Positions 3,506 to 12,160 of a stretch of 25,119 bases of DNA are shown piece by piece (position 1 is the stretch's first letter; each line of letters starts with the position of its first letter). The translations under genes and the position numbers were made by a program. The notes below the pieces were generated by a model. It was not told the DNA's origin. It saw only the letters and a program-made list of their open reading frames with translations, and made no database searches. The stretch is from NCBI GenBank assembly GCA_001818365.1, contig MHKK01000037.1, positions 1 through 25,119 on the forward strand. Reading direction: 5' to 3'. This DNA is from Candidatus Komeilibacteria bacterium RIFCSPHIGHO2_01_FULL_52_14 (GTDB lineage Bacteria > Patescibacteriota > Patescibacteriia > UBA1558 > 2-01-FULL-52-15).

Positions 3506-5269
3506 TTGAAAGGGTATAAGGAATCTGCTAGTATTCGCTCCGTTATGAATAAATACCGAGTTGAGGCAAAAACACATCGTCTCGCGACACCGACACAGGT
3601 GCGCGTGAGCATTTTTTTAATTGTCATATTGACCATCTCCGCCGTTTTCGTGGCTGTTCCGCAAAGCATTTTGGCAAAAATCAACCTTTCCATTCCCTTT
3701 TTCTCCCGATTCTACACGCATCTCGGTCTTGATCTTCAGGGAGGCACGCACCTGGTCTACCAAGCCGATCTCGGTAATATTGCGCCTTCGGAGCGCGATT
3801 CGGCCCTTGAGGGCGCAAGAGACGTCATAGACCGCAGAGTAAACTCGCTCGGTGTTGCCGAACCGGTCGTACAAACTTCCCATCAGGCAGGCAATTCCCG
3901 CATTATTATCGAGTTGGCCGGTGTTCTGGACGTCAATCAGGCAATTAAAAAAATAGGGGAGACGCCGCTTTTGGAATTTATGGAAACCGGGACTGCGACA
4001 ACCACTAAACCGACAAGTGAGCAGATTTCGGCTGTTGAAGAGAAAAATAAAGCCCAGGAGCAGGCAGCCAACGATATCATCAAACGGCTGCAGAAAGGCG
4101 AGATTTTCGAGGAGCTGGCAAAGCAATATTCCGAAGACCCGGGGAGCAAGGACAATGGTGGCGATCTGGACTGGATCGGTCGCGGTATCTTTACTCCGCT
4201 CTTCGAGAAAGCCATATTTGACGAAATGAAACCCGGCGATCTTCGGCCGGCGCCCCTGCAGACCGAGTTCGGATACCACGTCATTAAAAAATTAGAGGAG
4301 CGTACCACCGATACCGGCGCAAAGGAAATTCACGCCGCACACATTCTGTTCCGTACAGAGTCACTCAACCAGGACACGGGCCCCATCTGGATCAACACGT
4401 CGCTGTCGGGCAAAAATTTAAAGCGTGCCGAGGTGACCTTCACGTCGCGCGTCGGTGCTCCGGAAGTATCGCTTACCTTTGACAGCGAGGGGGCCAAGCT
4501 CTTTGAGGACATCACGCGCCGCAACGTCAACAAGCCCGTGGGCATCTTCCTCGATGGCTCGGCCATTTCAACGCCAAACGTCAACACGGTCATTACCGGG
4601 GGACAGGCGGTCATCACCGGAAACTTTTCCCTCGAAGAAGCAAAAACCCTGGCTCAACGGTTGAATGCGGGCGCTCTGCCGGTACCGATCTCTCTTTTGA
4701 GCCAGCAAACCGTCGGTCCGTCTCTCGGACGGGATTCCCTTGATAAAAGCGTCTTTGCAGGAGCCATCGGCTTCCTCCTGGTCGCCTTGTTTATGATCTT
4801 CCTGTATCGCCTGCCCGGTATTCTTGCAGTTTTGGCCCTGTGCCTCTATGCACTCATAACGGTCAGCTTATTTCAGATTATCCCGGTCACTCTTACCCTT
4901 GCGGGGGTTGCCGGTTTCATACTTTCGATCGGCATGGCAGTCGACGCGAACGTGCTGATCTTCGAACGCGTAAAGGAGGAGATCCGCAAAGGGCAAAACT
5001 TTACGAATGCCGTTGAAACCGGCTTTACGCGTGCATGGTCCTCAATACGCGATTCAAACGTCTCAAGTCTCATCACCTGTATCATCCTGTACTGGTTCGG
5101 ATCATCCATTATCCGGGGATTTGCGGTTACTCTCGCCCTGGGTATTGCCGTCAGCATGTTCTCGGCCATTACCGTCACACGCACCTACCTGCGAATCGTG
5201 ATCCGCTCGCAGGCGTTGCAGAAAACCTGGCTATTCGGAGTCAAGGCATCACATCAAACACATGCATAA
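3506..5269 (+). CDS. secD: protein-export membrane protein SecD with an embedded parvulin (PpiC-type) peptidyl-prolyl isomerase domain at about residues 172-265
   Basis: SecD hallmarks: LGLDLQGGTHLVYQAD, RVNSLGVAEPVVQ, IIIELAG, GETPLLEF, and C-terminal TM bundle motifs VDANVLIFERVKEE and ILYWFG. The embedded segment DIIKRLQKGEIFEELAKQYSEDPGSKDNGGDLDWIGRGIFTPLFEKAIFDEMKPGDLRPAPLQTEFGYHVIK matches the PpiC/parvulin rotamase signature. Start is TTG at 3506, preceded by AGGAG; an alternative ATG lies at 3545. Confidence 0.85.
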   Translation: MKGYKESASIRSVMNKYRVEAKTHRLATPTQVRVSIFLIVILTISAVFVAVPQSILAKINLSIPFFSRFYTHLGLDLQGGTHLVYQADLGNIAPSERDSALEGARDVIDRRVNSLGVAEPVVQTSHQAGNSRIIIELAGVLDVNQAIKKIGETPLLEFMETGTATTTKPTSEQISAVEEKNKAQEQAANDIIKRLQKGEIFEELAKQYSEDPGSKDNGGDLDWIGRGIFTPLFEKAIFDEMKPGDLRPAPLQTEFGYHVIKKLEERTTDTGAKEIHAAHILFRTESLNQDTGPIWINTSLSGKNLKRAEVTFTSRVGAPEVSLTFDSEGAKLFEDITRRNVNKPVGIFLDGSAISTPNVNTVITGGQAVITGNFSLEEAKTLAQRLNAGALPVPISLLSQQTVGPSLGRDSLDKSVFAGAIGFLLVALFMIFLYRLPGILAVLALCLYALITVSLFQIIPVTLTLAGVAGFILSIGMAVDANVLIFERVKEEIRKGQNFTNAVETGFTRAWSSIRDSNVSSLITCIILYWFGSSIIRGFAVTLALGIAVSMFSAITVTRTYLRIVIRSQALQKTWLFGVKASHQTHA

Positions 5270-7424: not shown

Positions 7425-8948
7425 ATGCTGCCAGACATTAATGCGTTTTTGATTCAACTTGCATCGAAAAGTCCACTCGAGGTCGGGTGGATTTTGTTTA
7501 TTAAAGGCGGGTGGATCATCCTTGCCGTCATGACCATCCGCGCCATGCTGTTGATACGGTTGTATCAACTGCAGGGCAAGTACCTTCGCAAATTTGAATA
7601 CGTACTGCTCGCGATCGACGTACCCAAGGCAAGTGAGCAAACTCCGAAAGCCATGGAACAGGTTTTTGCGACGATTACCGGGGCTCACCAGGAGATCAGC
7701 AGGCGCACGAAATACGGAACAGGAGAGGTCCAGCTCCAATTTTCTTTTGAGGTCGTCTCACTGGACGGGTATGTTCAATTCCTCGTTTACACGCCAAAAA
7801 TTTACCGTGACCTCGTCGAGGGAGCCATCTACTCGCAGTACCCCGACTGCGAGATTACGGAGGTAGAGGACTACACCAAGAATATCCCGTCGGTATGGCC
7901 AAACGATCAGTATAAACTCTGGGGGTCGGAAATTGTTCTGGCAAAAAAAGAAGCATACCCGCTTCGCACCTACCCTTCGTTCGAAGATCAGCTCTCGCAG
8001 GAGCTCAAGGACCCGCTTGCGTCGCTCATCGAAAATATGAGCCGTATCCATCAAAACGAGCAGGTCTGGCTGCAGATGATCCTCGTACCGACCGAGAACG
8101 TCGTGTGGGTCAAACGCGCCTTAAAGGAGGCCTATAAGATCGCCGGGAAAAAGACCAAGGAGGAACAAAAAACCGGATATCTGGACAGGATTCTGTCTCC
8201 GCTTTATAACTTCCCCAACTGGTTCTCGTGGCTAGCAACCGGAGGAGGCGAAACGAAACGGGACCAGCAATTCGATTTCCGCGTGCTCAATCTCACCCCG
8301 GGAGAGCGGGCGTCTGTCGAAGCCATAGAGAAAAAAGCATCAAAGCTCGGCTATATCGTTAAAATGCGTATCGTATATCTGTCGACGCCGGAACAATATC
8401 AGCCGGCGCGCGTCATTAATTCCGTTTTCGGTGCCATCAAGCAGTTCGGCGATCTGACGTCCAATTCACTGAAGCCCAACAAAAAGACCAAAACATCGGT
8501 CGTCTGGTTCAAGTTCAGATCAAAAGGCAAACAAATCCGACTCATGCGCAACTATAAGAACCGGTCATGGTTCCGCGGCTCCAAATGGTATATCCTTAAC
8601 GTAGAGGAGCTCGCCACGCTGTATCATTTCCCGTCGATAACCGTCACGTCTCCGTATCTCAAGCGTACGGAAACCAAAAAGGGCGAGGCACCGGTCCAGT
8701 TGCCGGCAAGCATTGTCGAGGAGAAAGCGGCCGAGATCGGCTCGCTCAAGACCGAGCTTGAAGGTCTGGATCTCGATAATGATTATTACGAGCAGAAGTA
8801 CGGCAAATATCGGGTGCCAAAGCCGCAAAACCTCACAGAGAAGCAGGCGACCGTCGTTGAGAAGCCGACTCTCGATACACGCTCGGATAAACCCGAGCAG
8901 GAAGCTGAATCAAAGTCCACAGCCCCAAGCAATTTACCTCTCGGATAA
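7425..8948 (+). CDS. single-pass membrane protein of unknown function (507 aa). It is homologous to the N-terminal half of the 829-aa protein at 22123-24612.
   Basis: Has an N-terminal TM helix (WILFIKGGWIILAVMTIRAMLLIRL). Alignable blocks with the 22123 ORF include FEYVLLAIDVPK vs HDILLITIPK and ILNVEELATLYHFPS vs LLNSEEMVSLFHLPE. Its TAA stop overlaps the ATG of the next gene (TAATG). Confidence 0.75.
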   Translation: MLPDINAFLIQLASKSPLEVGWILFIKGGWIILAVMTIRAMLLIRLYQLQGKYLRKFEYVLLAIDVPKASEQTPKAMEQVFATITGAHQEISRRTKYGTGEVQLQFSFEVVSLDGYVQFLVYTPKIYRDLVEGAIYSQYPDCEITEVEDYTKNIPSVWPNDQYKLWGSEIVLAKKEAYPLRTYPSFEDQLSQELKDPLASLIENMSRIHQNEQVWLQMILVPTENVVWVKRALKEAYKIAGKKTKEEQKTGYLDRILSPLYNFPNWFSWLATGGGETKRDQQFDFRVLNLTPGERASVEAIEKKASKLGYIVKMRIVYLSTPEQYQPARVINSVFGAIKQFGDLTSNSLKPNKKTKTSVVWFKFRSKGKQIRLMRNYKNRSWFRGSKWYILNVEELATLYHFPSITVTSPYLKRTETKKGEAPVQLPASIVEEKAAEIGSLKTELEGLDLDNDYYEQKYGKYRVPKPQNLTEKQATVVEKPTLDTRSDKPEQEAESKSTAPSNLPLG

Positions 8949-10687
8949 TGGATCAAAAAGCAAACAGCGCAATTACCGTTTTTGCCGCAACGAACTTCCG
9001 CAATAAGCAGCAGCGTTTCGGTATCAAACGCGAAGACCGGCGACGCCACATGTACCTTATCGGTAAAACCGGTATGGGTAAATCGCAGTTGCTGGAAAAC
9101 ATGGCGATTCAGGATATCAGAAACGGCAACGGCGTAGCGGTCGTGGATCCGCACGGCGACATGATCGAGCGGATTTTGCGATTCGTCCCGCGCGAGCGGA
9201 TCAACGATGTCGTCTATTTCAATCCCGCCGATCTCGAGTATCCGATTGCGTTCAACGTGCTCGAGAAAGTTTCTCCCGAGCAGCGTCACCTCGTCGCATC
9301 GGGGTTGATAGGCGTTTTTAAAAAGATCTGGGCCGATTCCTGGGGACCCCGTTTGGAGTACGTTCTGCATAATGCCATTTCTGCGCTTCTGGAGTACCCG
9401 AGCTCAACGCTCTTGGGCATCATGCGCATGCTCACCGACAAGAACTTTCGCAAGCGCGTCATCATGAAAGTAAACGACCCGGTCGTCAAGGCCTTTTGGG
9501 TTGACGAGTATTCCAAATACCCTGACCGGTTCCAGGCCGAAGCGATCGCGCCGATTCAAAACAAAGTCGGTCGCTTTTTGACATCGTCATTGATGCGCAA
9601 CATCGTCGGACAGGTAGCCTCAACGATCAACATCCGCGAAATAATGGATCGCGAAAAAATATTTTTGATCAACCTTTCCAAGGGACGCGTCGGCGAAGAC
9701 AATTCGTCATTGCTCGGCGCCCTTCTGATTACGAAGATGCAGCTCGCAGCCATGAGCCGCGTCGACGTGCCGGAAACGGAACGTAGAGATTTTTATCTTT
9801 ACGTCGACGAGTTCCAAAATTTCGCAACGGAAAGTTTTGCCGGCATCCTGTCCGAGGCGCGTAAATACCGTCTCAATCTGGTTCTTGCGCACCAATACAT
9901 TGCACAGCTTATTAACGATGCGAACAGTCAGGTCCGTGATGCCGTATTCGGCAACATCGGGACTCTGATTACGTTCCGCGTCGGCGCAGCCGACGCCGAG
10001 TTCATGGAGCCGGAATTCGAACCGCAGCTCACGATGAACGACCTCGTCAATCTCCCAAAGTACCATGTGTATTTGAAGCTCATGATTGACGGCGTCACCT
10101 CGAACGCCTTCTCCGCAACAACGCTGCCCCCGTACACCATCCCCGAGGATTCTGCGGAAGTTGTTGAAAAGATTATCAAATCCTCCCGTGAACGGTATGC
10201 GAAACCCCGTGAGGTCATCGAGGATAAGATTATCCGCTGGGCGGAAAACAAAGGCGATGGTGAAGGCAGCGCTGATGCTCGCGACGCTGGTCAAGCACGC
10301 GACACGAGGGATCACGAACCTCGGCGCACTGTACCGGCTGCAAGTCGACCGTCTCGACATGATGCGGCCGACACCGGCCCGGCAAAGCAGCTTTTTAGCG
10401 CTATTTGCTCGAATTGCGGCAAAGCGACCGAGACCAAATTCAAGCCGGATCCGAACAGACCTGTGTATTGCCAGGACTGCCTGCAAAAAATTAAGAGGGG
10501 AGAGTTGCCTTTAAGGCGCGAGATGCCCGAGCCACCCCGTGCAGTTTCACTGGCCGAAGCGATTGCCATGCACCAAAAACACGGACCACCTGTGCAAAAC
10601 CACGGCCAAATTGCTGAAAAAAAGCATTCCGAGCATATTTTACAGCCAAAACAAGTTGTATCGATCCCGCATAGCAGTAACACCTAG
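8948..10687 (+). CDS. FtsK/HerA-superfamily P-loop ATPase (HerA/DUF87- or VirB4/TraG-like) with a C-terminal low-complexity linker and a CxxC...CxxC zinc ribbon. It is homologous to the C-terminal half of the 829-aa protein.
   Basis: Walker A is YLIGKTGMGKSQ and a VVDPHGD motif follows, as in HerA/DUF87. Walker B is LYVDEFQNF. Arg/Gln sensor block: EARKYRLNLVLAHQYIAQL. The tail is CSNCGK...KFKPDPNRPVYCQDC. Confidence 0.8.
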   Translation: MDQKANSAITVFAATNFRNKQQRFGIKREDRRRHMYLIGKTGMGKSQLLENMAIQDIRNGNGVAVVDPHGDMIERILRFVPRERINDVVYFNPADLEYPIAFNVLEKVSPEQRHLVASGLIGVFKKIWADSWGPRLEYVLHNAISALLEYPSSTLLGIMRMLTDKNFRKRVIMKVNDPVVKAFWVDEYSKYPDRFQAEAIAPIQNKVGRFLTSSLMRNIVGQVASTINIREIMDREKIFLINLSKGRVGEDNSSLLGALLITKMQLAAMSRVDVPETERRDFYLYVDEFQNFATESFAGILSEARKYRLNLVLAHQYIAQLINDANSQVRDAVFGNIGTLITFRVGAADAEFMEPEFEPQLTMNDLVNLPKYHVYLKLMIDGVTSNAFSATTLPPYTIPEDSAEVVEKIIKSSRERYAKPREVIEDKIIRWAENKGDGEGSADARDAGQARDTRDHEPRRTVPAASRPSRHDAADTGPAKQLFSAICSNCGKATETKFKPDPNRPVYCQDCLQKIKRGELPLRREMPEPPRAVSLAEAIAMHQKHGPPVQNHGQIAEKKHSEHILQPKQVVSIPHSSNT

Positions 10688-10719: not shown

Positions 10720-11361
10720 GTGGATAACTTCAATCATCAAAAATTAATTATGCACAAAGAAAAAAAAGGATTCACCCAGCACCACTTTTTAAGTGGTAGC
10801 CATGGGTCAAGAATAGTGTCGAGTAACAAAAGTGGTGCCAGAAAGCTGGGTTTACCCAGCACCACTTTTAGCACCAAAAGTGGTGCTGGGTTCACGCTTA
10901 TCGAGCTTATCATCGTTGTGGCAATCATCGGACTGCTTGCCGCAGCGCTCTATGTGGCCATCGATCCGGCTGCACGTCTCGGTAATGCACGTGATGCGCG
11001 TAGGTACGCTGACGTAACGGCTATACTGAACGCAATTTTACAATATACGTCAGATACCTCAACACTGCCGACGCAGCTTGATTGTGCAGTAGGCACTTAC
11101 TGCATGATTCAGAATGGTGGTAGTGCTTCCGACGAAACAACGGGATCGAACTGCACGGAGCTCGATAGCAACCCGCCAACAGCTATGGCGATCGGATTAT
11201 CGTTAGTTGATAAATACCTTGCGTCTATCCCAATAGACCCGAGCGCAGCTTCCACTGCAACGAGCAGCTCAGGTTATTACCTAAAGCGATCAACGAGCGG
11301 TCGAATTACAGTCGGGTCGTGCACGAAATACCAAACTGCCTCAATCGAGGTCCAGCGGTAA
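10720..11361 (+). CDS. type IV pilin / pseudopilin (class III signal peptide, GFTLIEL N-methylation motif), copy 1, with an unusually long N-terminal extension
   Basis: KSGAG|FTLIELIIVVAIIGLLAAALYVA is a canonical prepilin-peptidase site and hydrophobic alpha1 helix with Glu+5. Four Cys are present in the C-terminal globular part. The ORF-track start is GTG. The true start is uncertain because the roughly 57-aa leader is atypical. Confidence 0.8.
   Translation: MDNFNHQKLIMHKEKKGFTQHHFLSGSHGSRIVSSNKSGARKLGLPSTTFSTKSGAGFTLIELIIVVAIIGLLAAALYVAIDPAARLGNARDARRYADVTAILNAILQYTSDTSTLPTQLDCAVGTYCMIQNGGSASDETTGSNCTELDSNPPTAMAIGLSLVDKYLASIPIDPSAASTATSSSGYYLKRSTSGRITVGSCTKYQTASIEVQR
10772..10890 (+). 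promoter_or_regulatory. structured leader element of pilin copy 1, built from repeated and inverted GCACCACTTTT / AAAAGTGGTGC blocks and including a perfect 15-bp-stem palindrome
   Basis: CCCAGCACCACTTTT-AGCACC-AAAAGTGGTGCTGGG lies at about 10854-10890. Additional copies at about 10774-10797 (ACCACTTTTTAAGTGGT) and 10827-10838 (AAAAGTGGTGCC) allow mutually exclusive pairings. Confidence 0.5.
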
Positions 11362-11417
11362 CATGACCAGGACGCATCTCCCGTAAGAGACGCACAAGAG
11401 CGCCGTTAGTTTGAGCT

Positions 11418-12023
11418 ATGAAGACCGCGAATGGATTCACCCAGCACCACTTTTCAAGTGGTAGCCATGTGTCAAGGCTAGTGTCGAGTAACAAAAGTGG
11501 TGCCAGAAAGCTGGGTTTACCCAGCACAACTTTTAGCACTAAAAGTGGTGCTGGGTTTACGCTTATCGAACTCATCATCGTTGTGGCAATCATCGGATTG
11601 CTTGCGGCAGCACTCTATGTTGCCCTTGATCCTGCAGGTCGCATTGGGAGGTCCCGCGATGCACGGCGATATACCGATGTGTCTGCCATATTGAATGCCA
11701 TATTGGAATATACGGCCGATACGACTACGTTGCCAACGAACGTCGCTGCTCTCAACACCGATGTCTACTACGTTGTTCAAAACGGCAGCAACGGGCAGGT
11801 CACTGCCGAAACAAGCATTCCGTGCAACGAAACGGGTATCCGTAACGGAGTCATCCTGGGTTCGCAACTCGTCAGTAAATATATTTCTACGATACCGCAG
11901 GATCCGAGGATCACCACAGCAACCAGCTCATCGCAATACTATATTCGTAAAACGACCAATGATAGAATCACCATTGGAGCATGTGAACACTATCAGTCGG
12001 GTTCGGTGGAAGTGCAGCGATAG
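11418..12023 (+). CDS. type IV pilin / pseudopilin, copy 2 (tandem paralogue)
   Basis: Has the same leader and GFTLIEL N-terminus as copy 1. The first roughly 190 nt are about 90% identical at nucleotide level; the globular C-terminal domain is divergent. ATG start. Confidence 0.8.
   Translation: MKTANGFTQHHFSSGSHVSRLVSSNKSGARKLGLPSTTFSTKSGAGFTLIELIIVVAIIGLLAAALYVALDPAGRIGRSRDARRYTDVSAILNAILEYTADTTTLPTNVAALNTDVYYVVQNGSNGQVTAETSIPCNETGIRNGVILGSQLVSKYISTIPQDPRITTATSSSQYYIRKTTNDRITIGACEHYQSGSVEVQR
11437..11555 (+). promoter_or_regulatory. structured leader element of pilin copy 2, duplicate of the copy-1 element
   Basis: Same block arrangement. The central palindrome CCCAGCACAACTTTT-AGCACT-AAAAGTGGTGCTGGG at 11520-11555 has one stem mismatch. 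Confidence 0.5.
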
Positions 12024-12099
12024 CATCTCGATCAGAAGTATCAAAATTACGGTCATCCCCTCGATTCCGTTACACCGCAGCGCGGGGTAACGGGGTTGA

Positions 12100-12160
12100 C
12101 CCCTCACCAGAGCCCTGGTGAGGGGTCTTCGTCGCTGCGCTCCTTGACAGGGGTTTTTTT
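12100..12160 (+). terminator. putative terminator region after the pilin genes
   Basis: GC-rich hairpin CCCCTCACCAG-AGCC-CTGGTGAGGGG (11-bp stem) at 12100-12125, followed 28 nt later by GGGG TTTTTTT at 12150-12160. Outer complementary CGCAGCG/CGCTGCG segments flank it. Confidence 0.4.

What the first reader, a model, noticed from the sequence alone, without database searches (positions are those of the whole stretch)
10720..12023. Tandem pilin paralogues with a near-identical 5' module and divergent 3' globular domains
About 190 nt are roughly 90% identical between the copies. This region covers the leader, the GFTLIEL site and the alpha1 helix. Substitutions within the mature N-terminus are synonymous. 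The downstream globular domains then diverge strongly. This is the architecture expected for exchangeable pilin tips, with adhesin or host-range variation and possible recombination between copies. It is relevant to surface attachment.
Basis: seen in the sequence. Interest (0 to 1): 0.55.

Follow-up and report, generated by a model that had tools for sequence, protein, structure and literature searches.

The report
Mobile hairpin inside pilin leader peptides
The near-identical start of these two neighbouring pilin genes is mostly a small palindromic mobile DNA element that landed in the Gly-Phe-Thr codons of the pilin signal peptide, rebuilt the cleavage site and is translated as an extra-long leader; the same hairpin also sits in other pilins, ribosomal RNA, RNase P RNA and housekeeping proteins of several bacterial phyla.

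Summary
The two tandem pilin genes (10750-11361, 11418-12023; Candidatus Komeilibacteria, a CPR bacterium) share about 193 nt at 93% identity. Flanks are unrelated upstream, and synonymous sites are saturated downstream.

The shared block is not simply "leader + GFTLIEL + alpha1". 120 of its nt are an in-frame insertion between a normal short leader ending in G-F-T and the real G|FTLIEL site. The insertion has two palindromic units with arms CCCAGCACCACTTT/AAAGTGGTGCTGGG, each flanked by a 5-nt direct repeat TTYAC. The right end ...GGG plus the duplicated TTYAC re-creates Gly-Phe-Thr.

Close homologues lack the insert. A population allele lacks 48 nt of it. An unrelated 485-aa pilin carries the same composite at 95% identity, with 55-61% identity beyond it.

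Thirty-five independent pilin genes carry related elements, and none has a stop in the pilin frame. The same hairpin also occurs in-frame in an IleRS-like synthetase, a glycosyltransferase and SelB. It is also found in RNase P RNA, 23S rRNA and group I introns across phyla.

Best reading: a MITE-like element that behaves like Rickettsia palindromic elements, tolerated because the leader is cleaved off. The paralogues themselves are old. No transposase was found, and I found no description in the papers searched.

The parts
10750..11361 (+). pil1: type IV pilin/pseudopilin-like gene (203 aa from ATG 10750; an in-frame GTG at 10720 gives 213 aa). It has an abnormal 47-residue leader.
   Evidence: ORF. 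PF07963 at residues 46-68. TIGR02532 above cutoff and GspG equivalog below cutoff. Identical to P0002/P0123 of Candidatus Komeilibacteria MAGs.
10750..10775 (+). Ancestral-looking short leader MHKEKK-G-F-T of pil1. It ends in the left copy of the 5-nt target duplication TTCAC (10771-10775). It contains an A8 run (10761-10767).
   Evidence: Sequence. Homologues without the insert begin M-(K/R-rich)-G-F-T-L-I-E-L directly. No similarity to pil2 upstream of 10767.
10776..10850 (+). Palindromic unit 1 (75 nt). It comprises the left arm CCAGCACCACTTTT, a 38-nt loop that contains a degenerate copy of the right arm, and the right arm AAAAGTGGTGC[CAGAAAGC]TGGG. The right arm is interrupted by an 8-nt insert at 10839-10846.
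   Evidence: Inverted repeats I4, I10, I14. The loop is 81-82% identical to the single-unit element in the pilin of L012, and visibly similar, in inverted orientation, to the intergenic copy L105:5203-5268.
10851..10855 (+). Middle copy of the target duplication (TTTAC) between unit 1 and unit 2.
   Evidence: Read. The same GCTGGG-TTTAC-CCAGC junction is present in pil2 and in L161.
10856..10890 (+). Palindromic unit 2 (35 nt): a 14-15 bp perfect stem with loop AGCACC. Its last three bases, GGG (10888-10890), are the Gly(-1) codon of the functional prepilin cleavage site.
   Evidence: Inverted repeat I6, 16/16 complementary with 6 nt between the arms. It dominates the RNA centroid fold of pil1 (z = -5.1).
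10839..10886 (+). 48-nt block (placement ambiguous within the 11-nt direct repeat AAAAGTGGTGC at 10828-10838 and 10876-10886) that is absent from a population allele of pil1.
   Evidence: P0124 / L153 (ENA ERZ4903185) encodes ...SSNKSGAGFTLIEL. The DNA alignment shows one clean 48-nt gap and an otherwise identical sequence.
10891..10959 (+). Right copy of the target duplication (TTCAC 10891-10895) followed by alpha1-N coding sequence FTLIELIIVVAIIGLLAAALYVA. This is the real mature N-terminus.
   Evidence: 90% nt identity to pil2 with all but one change synonymous. The amino-acid sequence is nearly invariant in the homologues inspected.
10960..11361 (+). pil1 alpha1-C and globular domain, strongly diverged from pil2.
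   Evidence: 63% then about 45-58% nt identity. 44% aa identity in the globular part. Synonymous sites saturated.
11418..12023 (+). pil2: second pilin gene (201 aa) with leader MKTAN-G-F-T plus the same 120-nt insertion. NCBI records annotate it from an internal start as 146 aa.
   Evidence: P0001 is found on at least 13 contigs. The truncated annotation is P0121.
11436..11560 (+). pil2 copy of the composite: TTCAC 11436-11440, unit 1 11441-11515, TTTAC 11516-11520, unit 2 11521-11555, TTTAC 11556-11560.
   Evidence: Register +665 relative to pil1, 95% identical. One arm mismatch at 11528 (C to A). The loop is polymorphic, AGCACT or AGCACC, among contigs.
12098..12160 (+). Likely transcription end of the pilin pair. 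There is a perfect 13-bp G+C-rich hairpin (12098-12127), then a second short hairpin with a T7 run (12139-12160).
   Evidence: Inverted repeat I9. Terminator-like site at 12139-12154. No terminator-like site on the + strand between pil1 and pil2.

Best explanation
A small non-coding palindromic mobile element (MITE-like) inserts at the pentanucleotide TTNAC and duplicates it. Its ends are CCAGCACCAYTT...AAGTGGTGCTGGG.

The universal Gly-Phe-Thr codons of prepilins (GGN TTY ACN) contain that target. The element's right end ...GCT GGG, followed by the duplicated TTY AC, rebuilds Ala-Gly|Phe-Thr. The prepilin peptidase site therefore survives downstream of the insert.

The insert is translated from the original start codon as part of a much longer leader (47 aa here). 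The leader is presumably removed with the normal cleavage, so the pilin stays functional (inferred).

In this genome a two-unit composite (75 + 35 nt plus three TTYAC copies, 120 nt in all, in frame) sits in both tandem pilins and in at least one unrelated pilin. Copies are kept alike by transposition and/or copy-to-copy gene conversion.

The near-identical 5' module is therefore the shared element plus the adjacent alpha1-N codons. Those codons are conserved because the protein sequence is nearly invariant. The two genes are otherwise ancient paralogues.

Shown: the anatomy, the flanking duplications, presence and absence among homologues and alleles, open reading frames, and occurrence in other genes and phyla. 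Inferred: the transposition mechanism, peptidase cleavage at the second G|F, and gene conversion.
For: Anatomy
- Three TTYAC copies bracket two palindromic units.

Insert absent or varying among relatives
- Most of the 120 best homologues cover only 72-81% of pil2; of the 20 sequences read, all but P0001/P0002 and three distant ones (P0019, P0047, P0057) start M..KGFTLIEL without the insert.
- Those three distant homologues carry a one-unit version. Its arms are nucleotide-identical even in AT-rich genomes.
- A population allele of pil1 lacks 48 nt of the insert.

Discrete unit
- The L161 pilin (485 aa) has the composite at 95% identity, but its next 75 nt are only 55-61% identical.
- In L152 two unrelated pilins share elements at 79% identity against 41-53% in their flanks.

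Target duplication independent of pilins
- Six non-pilin copies have identical 5-nt flanks: TTTAC three times, TTCAC twice, TTGAC once.
- In the metagenome sample the left flank was TTYAC in 31 of 34 hits although the search pattern did not require it.

Translated
- 35 unique pilin-associated elements have 0 stops in the pilin frame, against 50 and 20 stops in the other two frames.

Behaves like a Rickettsia palindromic element
- It is in frame inside a class I tRNA synthetase, a GT4 glycosyltransferase and SelB.
- It lies at helix tips of RNase P RNA, in 23S rRNA and in group I introns.
- Some Deltaproteobacteria MAGs carry dozens of copies.

Old paralogues
Against: - No autonomous element or transposase bounded by these ends was found in about 160 loci, in IMG/VR or in PLSDB.
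- Many copies, especially the Deltaproteobacterial ones and those in RNA genes, show no clean 5-nt duplication.
- About half of the pilin insertions measure 3n+1 between the TTYAC copies yet are in frame with an upstream ATG. This needs a second event, such as 1-nt slippage in the adjacent poly-A Lys codons, or variable duplication length.
- The inner parts of many copies are perfect palindromes of unrelated sequence. A plain TIR model does not predict this. It hints at a hairpin-dependent mechanism or an RNA-level function.
- Identical arms across phyla are unusual for MITEs.
- Cleavage of a 47-aa leader by prepilin peptidase is untested.
- The 48-nt allele rests on one short assembled contig.
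Confidence: 0.72

Rival explanations
1. Co-opted cis-regulatory hairpin. Whatever its origin, the stable stem-loop that starts 17-24 nt after the start codon is kept because it tunes translation or mRNA stability of highly expressed pilin transcripts, and of other abundant RNAs. It would do so, for example, as a binding site for a conserved hairpin-specific protein or as an RNase III site.
For: - The element is more conserved than neighbouring synonymous sites (dS 0.12 against 0.57).
- The arms are identical across phyla, while distal stems covary. 44 of 132 unique cores have at least 4 extra pairs, against 0.7% of shuffles.
- The fold is far more stable than shuffles (z = -5.1 and -3.0).
- It is enriched in abundant structured RNAs and in pilins.
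Against: - Presence is patchy among close pilin homologues, and an allele with a 48-nt indel exists.
- It occurs inside unrelated ORFs and intergenic DNA with target duplications.
- Some genomes carry dozens of copies.
- There is no Rfam family. Only chance matches to microRNA-type hairpins appear.
- Low divergence between copies is equally explained by recent spread or conversion.
Confidence: 0.15
2. A conserved 5' recombination module lets globular 'tips' be exchanged between tandem pilin copies, giving cassette-like antigenic or adhesin variation. The identity is maintained for that purpose.
For: - Direct repeats of about 190 nt at 93% in tandem genes are a competent substrate for homologous recombination.
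- Third-position identity falls gradually (0.93, 0.87, 0.80, 0.53, 0.07), as at a conversion-tract edge.
- L148 shows the same pattern in another genome.
Against: - Both genes are complete and separately startable.
- There are no silent cassettes in the window.
- No chimeric or deleted alleles were seen among the contigs and clusters examined.
- Most of the conserved block is an element also found in non-pilin genes and RNAs.
- The same composite is in an unrelated pilin without flanking homology.
Confidence: 0.08
3. The insert is not translated. It is removed or skipped, either by RNA excision at the long stem or by ribosomal bypassing between the matched GGN-TTY-AC take-off and landing sites, as in phage T4 gene 60.
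For: - Matched codon triplets flank a very stable hairpin.
- Elements also sit in rRNA, where intervening sequences are often cut out.
Against: - An excised or bypassed segment needs no open frame, yet 35 of 35 pilin-associated elements are stop-free in the pilin frame only.
- No stop codon follows the putative take-off site.
- In the 3n+1 class the upstream ATG is in the pilin frame through the element, and skipping from TTYAC to TTYAC would break the frame.
Confidence: 0.03
4. Simple recent tandem duplication whose 3' parts diverged fast under positive selection.
For: Tandem arrangement and an identical architecture.
Against: - Synonymous sites beyond mature residue 25 are saturated.
- pil2's globular domain is closer to homologues from other organisms than to pil1.
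- There is no similarity upstream of 10767.
Confidence: 0.02

Closest known systems
Rickettsia palindromic elements (RPEs)
   Same: - Short palindromic interspersed repeats.
- Found both in intergenic DNA and inserted in frame inside protein-coding genes, including an aminoacyl-tRNA synthetase (PMC1779305, read).
- RPEs are also reported in RNA genes (my own knowledge of the RPE literature, not checked here).
- Here the element is in frame in pilins, an IleRS-like synthetase, a GT4 glycosyltransferase and SelB, and inside RNase P RNA, 23S rRNA and group I introns.
   Different: - RPEs are 100-150 bp and confined to Rickettsiales. This element is 35-75 nt.
- Its 12-14 nt arms are identical in CPR bacteria and several other phyla.
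- It shows a 5-nt TTNAC flanking duplication.
- It has a preferred harbour at a signal-peptide cleavage motif, which it regenerates.
- Sequence relationship to RPE families was not tested.
Bacterial MITEs (for example Correia elements of Neisseria)
   Same: - Terminal inverted repeats.
- Short target-site duplication.
- No coding capacity.
- Multiple copies.
- Subfamilies with unrelated internal sequence.
- Can be co-transcribed and fold into hairpins.
   Different: - No parent insertion sequence was identified.
- Many copies are perfect hairpins over their whole length, with covarying inner stems.
- Distribution is cross-phylum.
- Strong bias to coding and structural-RNA sites rather than intergenic DNA.
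REP/REPIN elements mobilised by RAYT tyrosine transposases; IS200/IS605-derived palindromic elements
   Same: - Hairpin-forming repeats whose structure, not just sequence, is maintained.
- Highly amplified in some genomes (the Deltaproteobacteria MAGs here).
- A TTAC-like target recalls IS608 (my own knowledge).
   Different: - No GTAG or CGTC tag was seen next to the palindrome (by reading the flanks).
- No RAYT or TnpA was found.
- The flanking pentanucleotide covaries on both sides (TTTAC/TTTAC, TTCAC/TTCAC, TTGAC/TTGAC). That is a duplication, whereas IS200/IS605 elements insert without one.
Type IV pilins / type II secretion pseudopilins with class III signal peptides
   Same: - G|F-T-L-I-E-L cleavage/methylation motif.
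- Hydrophobic alpha1-N.
- Small globular domain.
- Best solved relatives are Geobacter pilin domain 1 and PilA, matching only through alpha1.
   Different: - The leader is 46-47 residues here and up to about 85 in P0128.
- In characterised pilins it is about 5-30 residues (my own knowledge).
- The GspG equivalog score is far below its cutoff.
Pilin variation systems (Neisseria pilE/pilS, Moraxella Piv inversion, R64 shufflon)
   Same: Several pilin copies share a conserved 5' part and differ in the 3' globular or tip part.
   Different: - No promoterless silent cassettes.
- No inverted gene arrangement.
- No recombinase gene in the window.
- The conserved block is largely a generic mobile hairpin.

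Membership tests
Type IV pilin / pseudopilin (prepilin-type N-terminal cleavage/methylation domain) | G-F-x-x-x-E motif followed by a hydrophobic helix of about 20 residues | tested here: met
   PF07963 30.2 bits (cutoff 21.2) in both proteins. TIGR02532 29.1 bits (cutoff 16.3). Sequence AG|FTLIELIIVVAIIGLLAAALYVA.
Type IV pilin / pseudopilin (prepilin-type N-terminal cleavage/methylation domain) | Short, positively charged leader directly preceding the cleavage site (about 5-30 residues in characterised pilins; from general knowledge) | tested here: not met
   The motif starts at residue 45/46. The leader is 46-47 aa because of the 40-codon insert. Homologues without the insert have 5-20 aa leaders.
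Type IV pilin / pseudopilin (prepilin-type N-terminal cleavage/methylation domain) | Cleavage and N-methylation by a prepilin peptidase; assembly into a fibre | not testable with these tools
   No peptidase or assembly genes are in the window. This needs proteomics or experiment.
GspG (type II secretion major pseudopilin) equivalog | Full-length match above the NCBIfam trusted cutoff | tested here: not met
   TIGR01710 scores 34.8 and 37.8 bits against cutoff 88.85. Only the N-terminal ~65 residues align.
MITE (miniature inverted-repeat transposable element) | Terminal inverted repeats on a short non-coding unit | tested here: met
   Arms of 14-16 nt are perfectly complementary. The same arms occur in 132 unique cores.
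MITE (miniature inverted-repeat transposable element) | Target-site duplication flanking each copy | tested here: inconclusive
   Clean 5-nt TTNAC repeats occur at the window copies, at 31 of 34 metagenome hits and at six non-pilin copies. They are absent or unclear at many Deltaproteobacterial and RNA-gene copies. No orthologous empty site was compared.
MITE (miniature inverted-repeat transposable element) | Several dispersed copies per genome, with presence/absence polymorphism | tested here: met
   - Dozens of copies in the JACRCE01 and JACRCB01 MAGs.
- At least 3 copies on one CPR-like contig (L012/L105).
- Patchy among pilin homologues.
- An allele with a 48-nt indel.
MITE (miniature inverted-repeat transposable element) | A cognate autonomous element or transposase with the same ends | tested here: not met
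   No long-range arm pairs or transposase ORFs were found in the fetched loci. Nothing was found in IMG/VR or PLSDB. The search was not exhaustive.
Rickettsia palindromic elements | Palindromic repeat inserted in frame in ORFs and compatible with protein function | tested here: met
   It is in frame between the Pfam domains of an IleRS-like synthetase, GT4 and SelB. 35 of 35 pilin copies are stop-free. This concerns behaviour only. Protein function itself was not tested.
Rickettsia palindromic elements | Sequence membership in RPE-1 to RPE-8 and restriction to Rickettsiales | not tested
   No RPE models were available. The hosts here are CPR and other phyla, so it is treated as an analogue, not a member.
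REP/REPIN-RAYT | Conserved GTAG or CGTC tetranucleotide at the palindrome foot and an associated RAYT gene | tested here: not met
   Flanks read show no such tag. No Y1 transposase was noticed in the ORFs inspected. The inspection was limited.
Programmed translational bypass (T4 gene 60 type) | Stop codon right after the take-off codon, and a coding gap that need not be open | tested here: not met
   There is no stop after GGA/TTC. The gap is open in 35 of 35 cases in the pilin frame only.
Cassette-type pilin variation (pilE/pilS-like) | Silent partial copies lacking a promoter and 5' end that donate sequence to one expression locus | tested here: not met
   Both copies are full length with their own start codons. 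No further GFTLIE-type starts or arm copies exist in the 25-kb window.

The most novel reading that the evidence does not exclude
The hairpin is not just junk DNA. It would represent an undescribed, cross-phylum class of hairpin-dependent mobile element. An as yet unknown enzyme would recognise the invariant 12-14 bp stem foot and TTNAC.

The element would use the universal Gly-Phe-Thr codons of prepilins as a 'safe harbour', because it rebuilds the peptidase site.

Its copies would have been co-opted in CPR bacteria in one or both of two ways:
- As leader-extension or translation-tuning modules.
- As portable homology that lets unrelated pilin genes exchange 5' ends.
Probability: 0.25. Interest if true: 0.8.

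Novelty: new variant of a known kind. Interest (0 to 1): 0.6.

Why it matters
**Annotation.** This is a concrete pitfall. Gene callers either truncate these pilins (NCBI starts pil2 inside the alpha1 helix, 146 aa) or report odd 45-85-residue leaders. Tools that predict class III signal peptides will miss them.

**Selfish DNA in ORFs.** In-frame, translated palindromic selfish DNA is classically a Rickettsia curiosity. This extends it to the Candidate Phyla Radiation and beyond. It also gives a mechanistic reason for one hotspot: the target pentanucleotide lies inside the conserved G-F-T codons, and the element's GGG end restores the cleavage site.

**Testable questions.**
- What mobilises a 35-75 nt hairpin whose stem foot is identical across phyla?
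- Why does it accumulate in RNase P RNA, rRNA and introns?
- Can prepilin peptidases handle leaders this long?

**Pilus biology of CPR episymbionts.** Apparent "conserved 5' modules" between pilin paralogues need not signal a variation system.

Tried and rejected
**Known RNA family or riboswitch.** Rfam gave nothing at gathering score. Only chance microRNA-like hairpins appeared at E up to 5.

**Attenuator or terminator reading of the four complementary segments.** No U-run follows the 3' hairpin, and no terminator-like site lies between the genes.

**Internal start codon after the hairpin.** There is no ATG, GTG or TTG in frame between the element and GFTLIEL.

**Ribosomal bypass or RNA excision.** Rejected on reading-frame statistics.

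**tRNA-derived origin or primer-binding site.** The arm resembles a tRNA 3' end (ACCCAGC-A-CCA). The tRNA scan of 36 loci and the window found only 4 tRNA genes, whose acceptor ends I did not read, so the lead stays untested.

**Search for an autonomous element.**
- Unpaired arms in the fetched loci led only to ordinary genes: a methyltransferase, Lon-like protease and ribosomal proteins.
- IMG/VR gave 0 hits.
- PLSDB gave 0 hits.

**Literature.** Searches for the arm sequence, the TQHHF peptide, and MITEs in CPR found no description.

**Failed or low-yield searches.**
- Protein word-index search with the 41-aa insert peptide failed: no candidate shared three words. One capped search was wasted.
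- The exhaustive HMMER search with the two-unit peptide found only 3 clusters. One-unit versions score too low to count that way.
- I first inferred selection for multiples of three from the genome sample (9 of 11). The larger metagenome sample showed a 3n+1 class as well, so I replaced that argument with the stop-codon test.

**Integron attC or shufflon sfx sites.** The consensus sequences do not fit. This was judged by reading only.
Full report
**1. What is at the coordinates**

The window is a contig of a Candidatus Komeilibacteria (Candidate Phyla Radiation) genome. The two ORFs are identical to proteins named from such MAGs.
- pil1 runs from ATG 10750 (or GTG 10720) to 11361.
- pil2 runs from 11418 to 12023.
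- They lie head to tail, 56 nt apart.
- Upstream is a VirD4/TraD-like ATPase gene.
- Downstream are a strong hairpin (12098-12127) and then the hrcA-grpE-hsp20-dnaK-dnaJ cluster.

Both proteins carry the prepilin cleavage/methylation motif. Pfam and NCBIfam place it at residues 45/46-67/68, not at the N-terminus. Solved relatives match only through the alpha1 helix.

**2.

In an ungapped +665 register:

| Segment | Identity |
|---|---|
| 60 nt before 10767 | 23% |
| 10771-10890 | 95% |
| 10891-10959 | 90% |
| Next 105 nt | 63% |

Identity then falls to about 45-58%. Nei-Gojobori estimates are dS 0.12 (insert), 0.57 (mature residues 1-24; 8 synonymous and 1 non-synonymous change) and saturation beyond.

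In the globular part pil2 is 55-59% identical to homologues from other organisms, but only 44% identical to pil1. The genes are therefore ancient paralogues with a young-looking 5' block. A uniform recent duplication is excluded.

**3. What the conserved block really is**

Both proteins begin like ordinary prepilins: MHKEKK-G-F-T and MKTAN-G-F-T. Forty extra codons follow before the real ...A-G|F-T-L-I-E-L.

The 120 nt consist of:
- TTCAC (10771-10775)
- unit 1 (10776-10850)
- TTTAC (10851-10855)
- unit 2 (10856-10890)
- TTCAC (10891-10895)

Each unit starts with CCAGCACCACTTTT and ends with AAAAGTGGTGCTGGG. In unit 1 the right arm is interrupted by CAGAAAGC.

The 16-mer arm occurs six times in the two genes and nowhere else in 25 kb; 0.09 are expected. 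The region folds far better than shuffles (z = -5.1 and -3.0). It matches no Rfam family.

The last three bases of unit 2, GGG, are the Gly(-1) codon. GGG plus the duplicated TTCAC reads Gly-Phe-Thr. The insertion has therefore rebuilt the cleavage motif that it split.

**4. It is an insertion, not an ancestral long leader**

- Most of the 120 best homologues cover only 72-81% of pil2 and are mostly 155-175 aa. Of the 20 read, all but P0001/P0002 and three others start M-(basic)-G-F-T-L-I-E-L.
- Those three more distant homologues (P0019, P0047, P0057, 43-47% identical) have a one-unit version, GFTQHHF...KSGAGFTLIEL.
- Their DNA shows the same arms to the nucleotide, although two of the genomes are AT-rich.
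- A population allele of pil1 (P0124 on L153) lacks exactly 48 nt. That leaves a single unit with a perfect right arm.
- An unrelated 485-aa Cys-rich pilin (P0126 on L161) carries the same two-unit composite, including the 8-nt interruption and the AGCACC loop. It is 95% identical, but the next 75 nt are only 55-61% identical and the upstream leader is unrelated.
- Its orthologue on L012 has only one unit.
- In L152, two pilins that are otherwise barely alignable (41-53%) carry elements that are 79% identical.
- In L148, the figures are element 94%, alpha1-N 81% and the rest 69%.

The element is therefore a discrete unit that moves, or is copied, between pilin genes of a genome.

**5. Distribution beyond pilins**

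Hosts include:
- many CPR lineages;
- MAGs labelled Deltaproteobacteria/Thermodesulfobacteriota, with dozens of copies per genome embedded in longer composite repeats;
- MAGs labelled Nitrospirae, Elusimicrobia, Acidobacteria, Spirochaetes, Leptospirales and Chthoniobacterales.

Bin labels can be wrong. The 'Gammaproteobacteria' contig L012/L105 looks CPR-like and syntenic with L161.

Copies lie in:
- 23S rRNA (L035, L068, L079);
- RNase P RNA, at the tip of P12 in L053 and of another hairpin in L105;
- group I introns (L101, L121).

Copies also lie in frame between the Pfam domains of a class I (IleRS-like) tRNA synthetase, a GT4 glycosyltransferase and SelB.

None was found in 2.9 million viral contigs or in PLSDB plasmids.

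**6. Target and duplication**

In pilins the flanks are GGN-TTYAC and GGG-TTYAC. In a pilin that has G-Y-T they are GGATACAC and GGGTATAC (L033).

The same pentanucleotide flanks non-pilin copies on both sides, and it covaries:

| Locus | Flank on both sides | Context |
|---|---|---|
| L105 | TTTAC | intergenic, after mreB |
| L123 | TTTAC | non-pilin |
| L140 | TTTAC | non-pilin |
| L147 | TTCAC | non-pilin |
| L092 | TTCAC | non-pilin |
| L063 | TTGAC | non-pilin |

About 0.6 exact matches are expected by chance for the whole set.

In the metagenome scan only the right flank was specified, yet 31 of 34 left flanks were TTYAC. This is the signature of a 5-nt target-site duplication with target TTNAC.

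It explains why prepilin genes are hit again and again: GGN TTY ACN contains the target. Many copies in RNA genes and in the Deltaproteobacterial repeats lack a clean duplication. The rule is therefore not universal, or old duplications have decayed.

**7. Is it translated?**

Among 35 unique pilin-associated elements:
- the pilin frame has no stop in any of them;
- the other two frames have 50 and 20 stops, and are open in only 11 and 21 elements.

Two reading classes exist. In one the left arm reads T-Q-H-H-F (spacing 3n). In the other it reads L-P-S-T-T-F (spacing 3n+1). One case reads P-A-P-L.

In most 3n+1 cases shown, an ATG followed by a short basic leader lies in the pilin frame; no ATG is visible in the stretch shown for L132 and L134. 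The T-Q-H-H-F frame is closed by stops a few codons upstream. In the four I examined (L125, L130, L143, L148c), a 1-nt change in the poly-A Lys codons just before the Gly codon would reconcile the frames. This suggests compensatory slippage, which is an inference.

In the window, unit 2 plus its duplication is 40 nt and the 8-nt interruption of unit 1 adds 8. Together these are the 48 nt missing from L153, so both alleles are in frame.

These data argue for read-through translation as part of the leader. They argue against RNA excision or gene-60-type bypassing.

**8. Hairpin, not only terminal repeats**

Beyond the 12-nt arms, 44 of 132 unique cores continue as perfect palindromes for at least 4 more pairs, against 0.7% of loop shuffles. 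The inner sequences are completely different between copies.

Either the hairpin itself (in single-stranded DNA or RNA) is required, or the generating mechanism makes palindromes. This, together with the invariance of the arms across phyla, is what an ordinary MITE model does not explain.

**9. Mechanism proposed**

A hairpin-type mobile element inserts at TTNAC. In prepilin genes it lands in the Phe-Thr codons. Its GGG end plus the duplicated target restores G|F-T.

Insertions that keep or regain the frame survive, because the whole leader is discarded by the prepilin peptidase. That step is inferred, not shown.

Within a genome, copies spread to other pilin genes and homogenise each other. 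In this window that accounts for 120 of the ~193 conserved nt.

The other ~70 nt are alpha1-N codons. Their protein sequence is nearly invariant in the homologues inspected. Their dS of 0.57 is lower than saturation, so some spill-over of conversion from the element is possible but not required.

**10. Comparison with known systems**

- The closest behavioural analogue is the Rickettsia palindromic element: interspersed 100-150 bp repeats in intergenic and protein-coding regions, including a tRNA synthetase (PMC1779305).
- Structurally it resembles a MITE, but no parent element was found.
- It is not a REP/RAYT-type repeat by the features I could read.
- It is not an attC site.
- It is not a pilin cassette system.
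- I found no paper that contains the arm sequence in a bacterial context, or the TQHHF peptide.

**11. Verdict**

The mosaic is real. The conserved module is mainly a selfish or possibly co-opted hairpin element in the signal peptide, not evidence for an exchangeable-tip system.
- The tandem pilins themselves are ordinary.
- The element, its regenerating target choice and its cross-phylum spread are the interesting part. They appear to be undescribed.

Noticed in passing
window 11418-12023 (public annotation of the same gene): NCBI records annotate pil2 as a 146-aa protein that starts at MAIIGLL inside the alpha1 helix (P0121). This drops the cleavage motif. The insertion evidently misleads start-codon calling.
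   Followed up: partly
window 3506-5269 (+): The SecD homologue has a PpiC-type peptidyl-prolyl isomerase (rotamase) domain (residues ~176-264). It is inserted between the SecD first P1 segment and the P1 head subdomain. This is an unusual fusion.
   Followed up: no
window 7425-10687 (+): Directly upstream of the pilins lie a 507-aa protein with no Pfam/NCBIfam hit in my scans (carrying a precomputed PF26449/DUF8128 hit on other contigs) and a VirD4/TraD-like coupling ATPase. The ATPase carries a C-terminal CxxC-x17-CxxC treble-clef zinc finger. The pair is conserved on all longer contigs that carry pil2.
   Followed up: no
window 10761-10767: An A8 run lies in the Lys codons of the pil1 leader, just before the first Gly codon. 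Similar poly-A tracts precede the element in other pilins. They may be where frame-restoring 1-nt slips occurred.
   Followed up: partly
L149:2173-2247 (P0128) and P0127: Some pilins carry three or four tandem units, or repeated ARKSGAGFTLL junction copies. This gives leaders of about 70-85 residues with several potential G|F-T sites.
   Followed up: no
L004-L122, contigs JACRCE01/JACRCB01/JACRNL01/JACRCI01 (Deltaproteobacteria MAGs): The same core hairpin is present in dozens of copies per genome. It is embedded in longer mosaic repeats (for example tgtcattgcgagc ... gctcgcaatgaca) and occurs in both orientations. This is a REP/BIME-like amplification in a different phylum.
   Followed up: partly
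L053:869-921 and L105:5510-5601: In RNase P RNA the hairpin forms or extends the tip of P12 in one organism. In another it extends a different terminal hairpin, as a 99-nt insertion. In L105 a further copy lies only 250 nt upstream, after mreB.
   Followed up: partly
L067 (- strand), upstream of the pilin at 2530-2589: An ORF whose sequence looks GIY-YIG-like by eye (not scanned) (...YYEAFKEEQIARMREHNLKH...) runs without a stop into the element-bearing pilin gene. Whether small GIY-YIG nucleases are linked to the element was not examined.
   Followed up: no
window 10774-10785 and all arms: The arm ACCCAGC-A-CCA has the form of a tRNA 3' acceptor strand plus discriminator plus CCA. Its complement looks like a primer-binding site. 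No matching tRNA was looked for beyond the fetched loci.
   Followed up: partly
L157-L160 (contig ends): Several metagenome contigs of this population break within or just beside the repeated 5' module. This is as expected for a ~190-nt near-identical repeat. Assemblies of such pilin loci are fragile.
   Followed up: no
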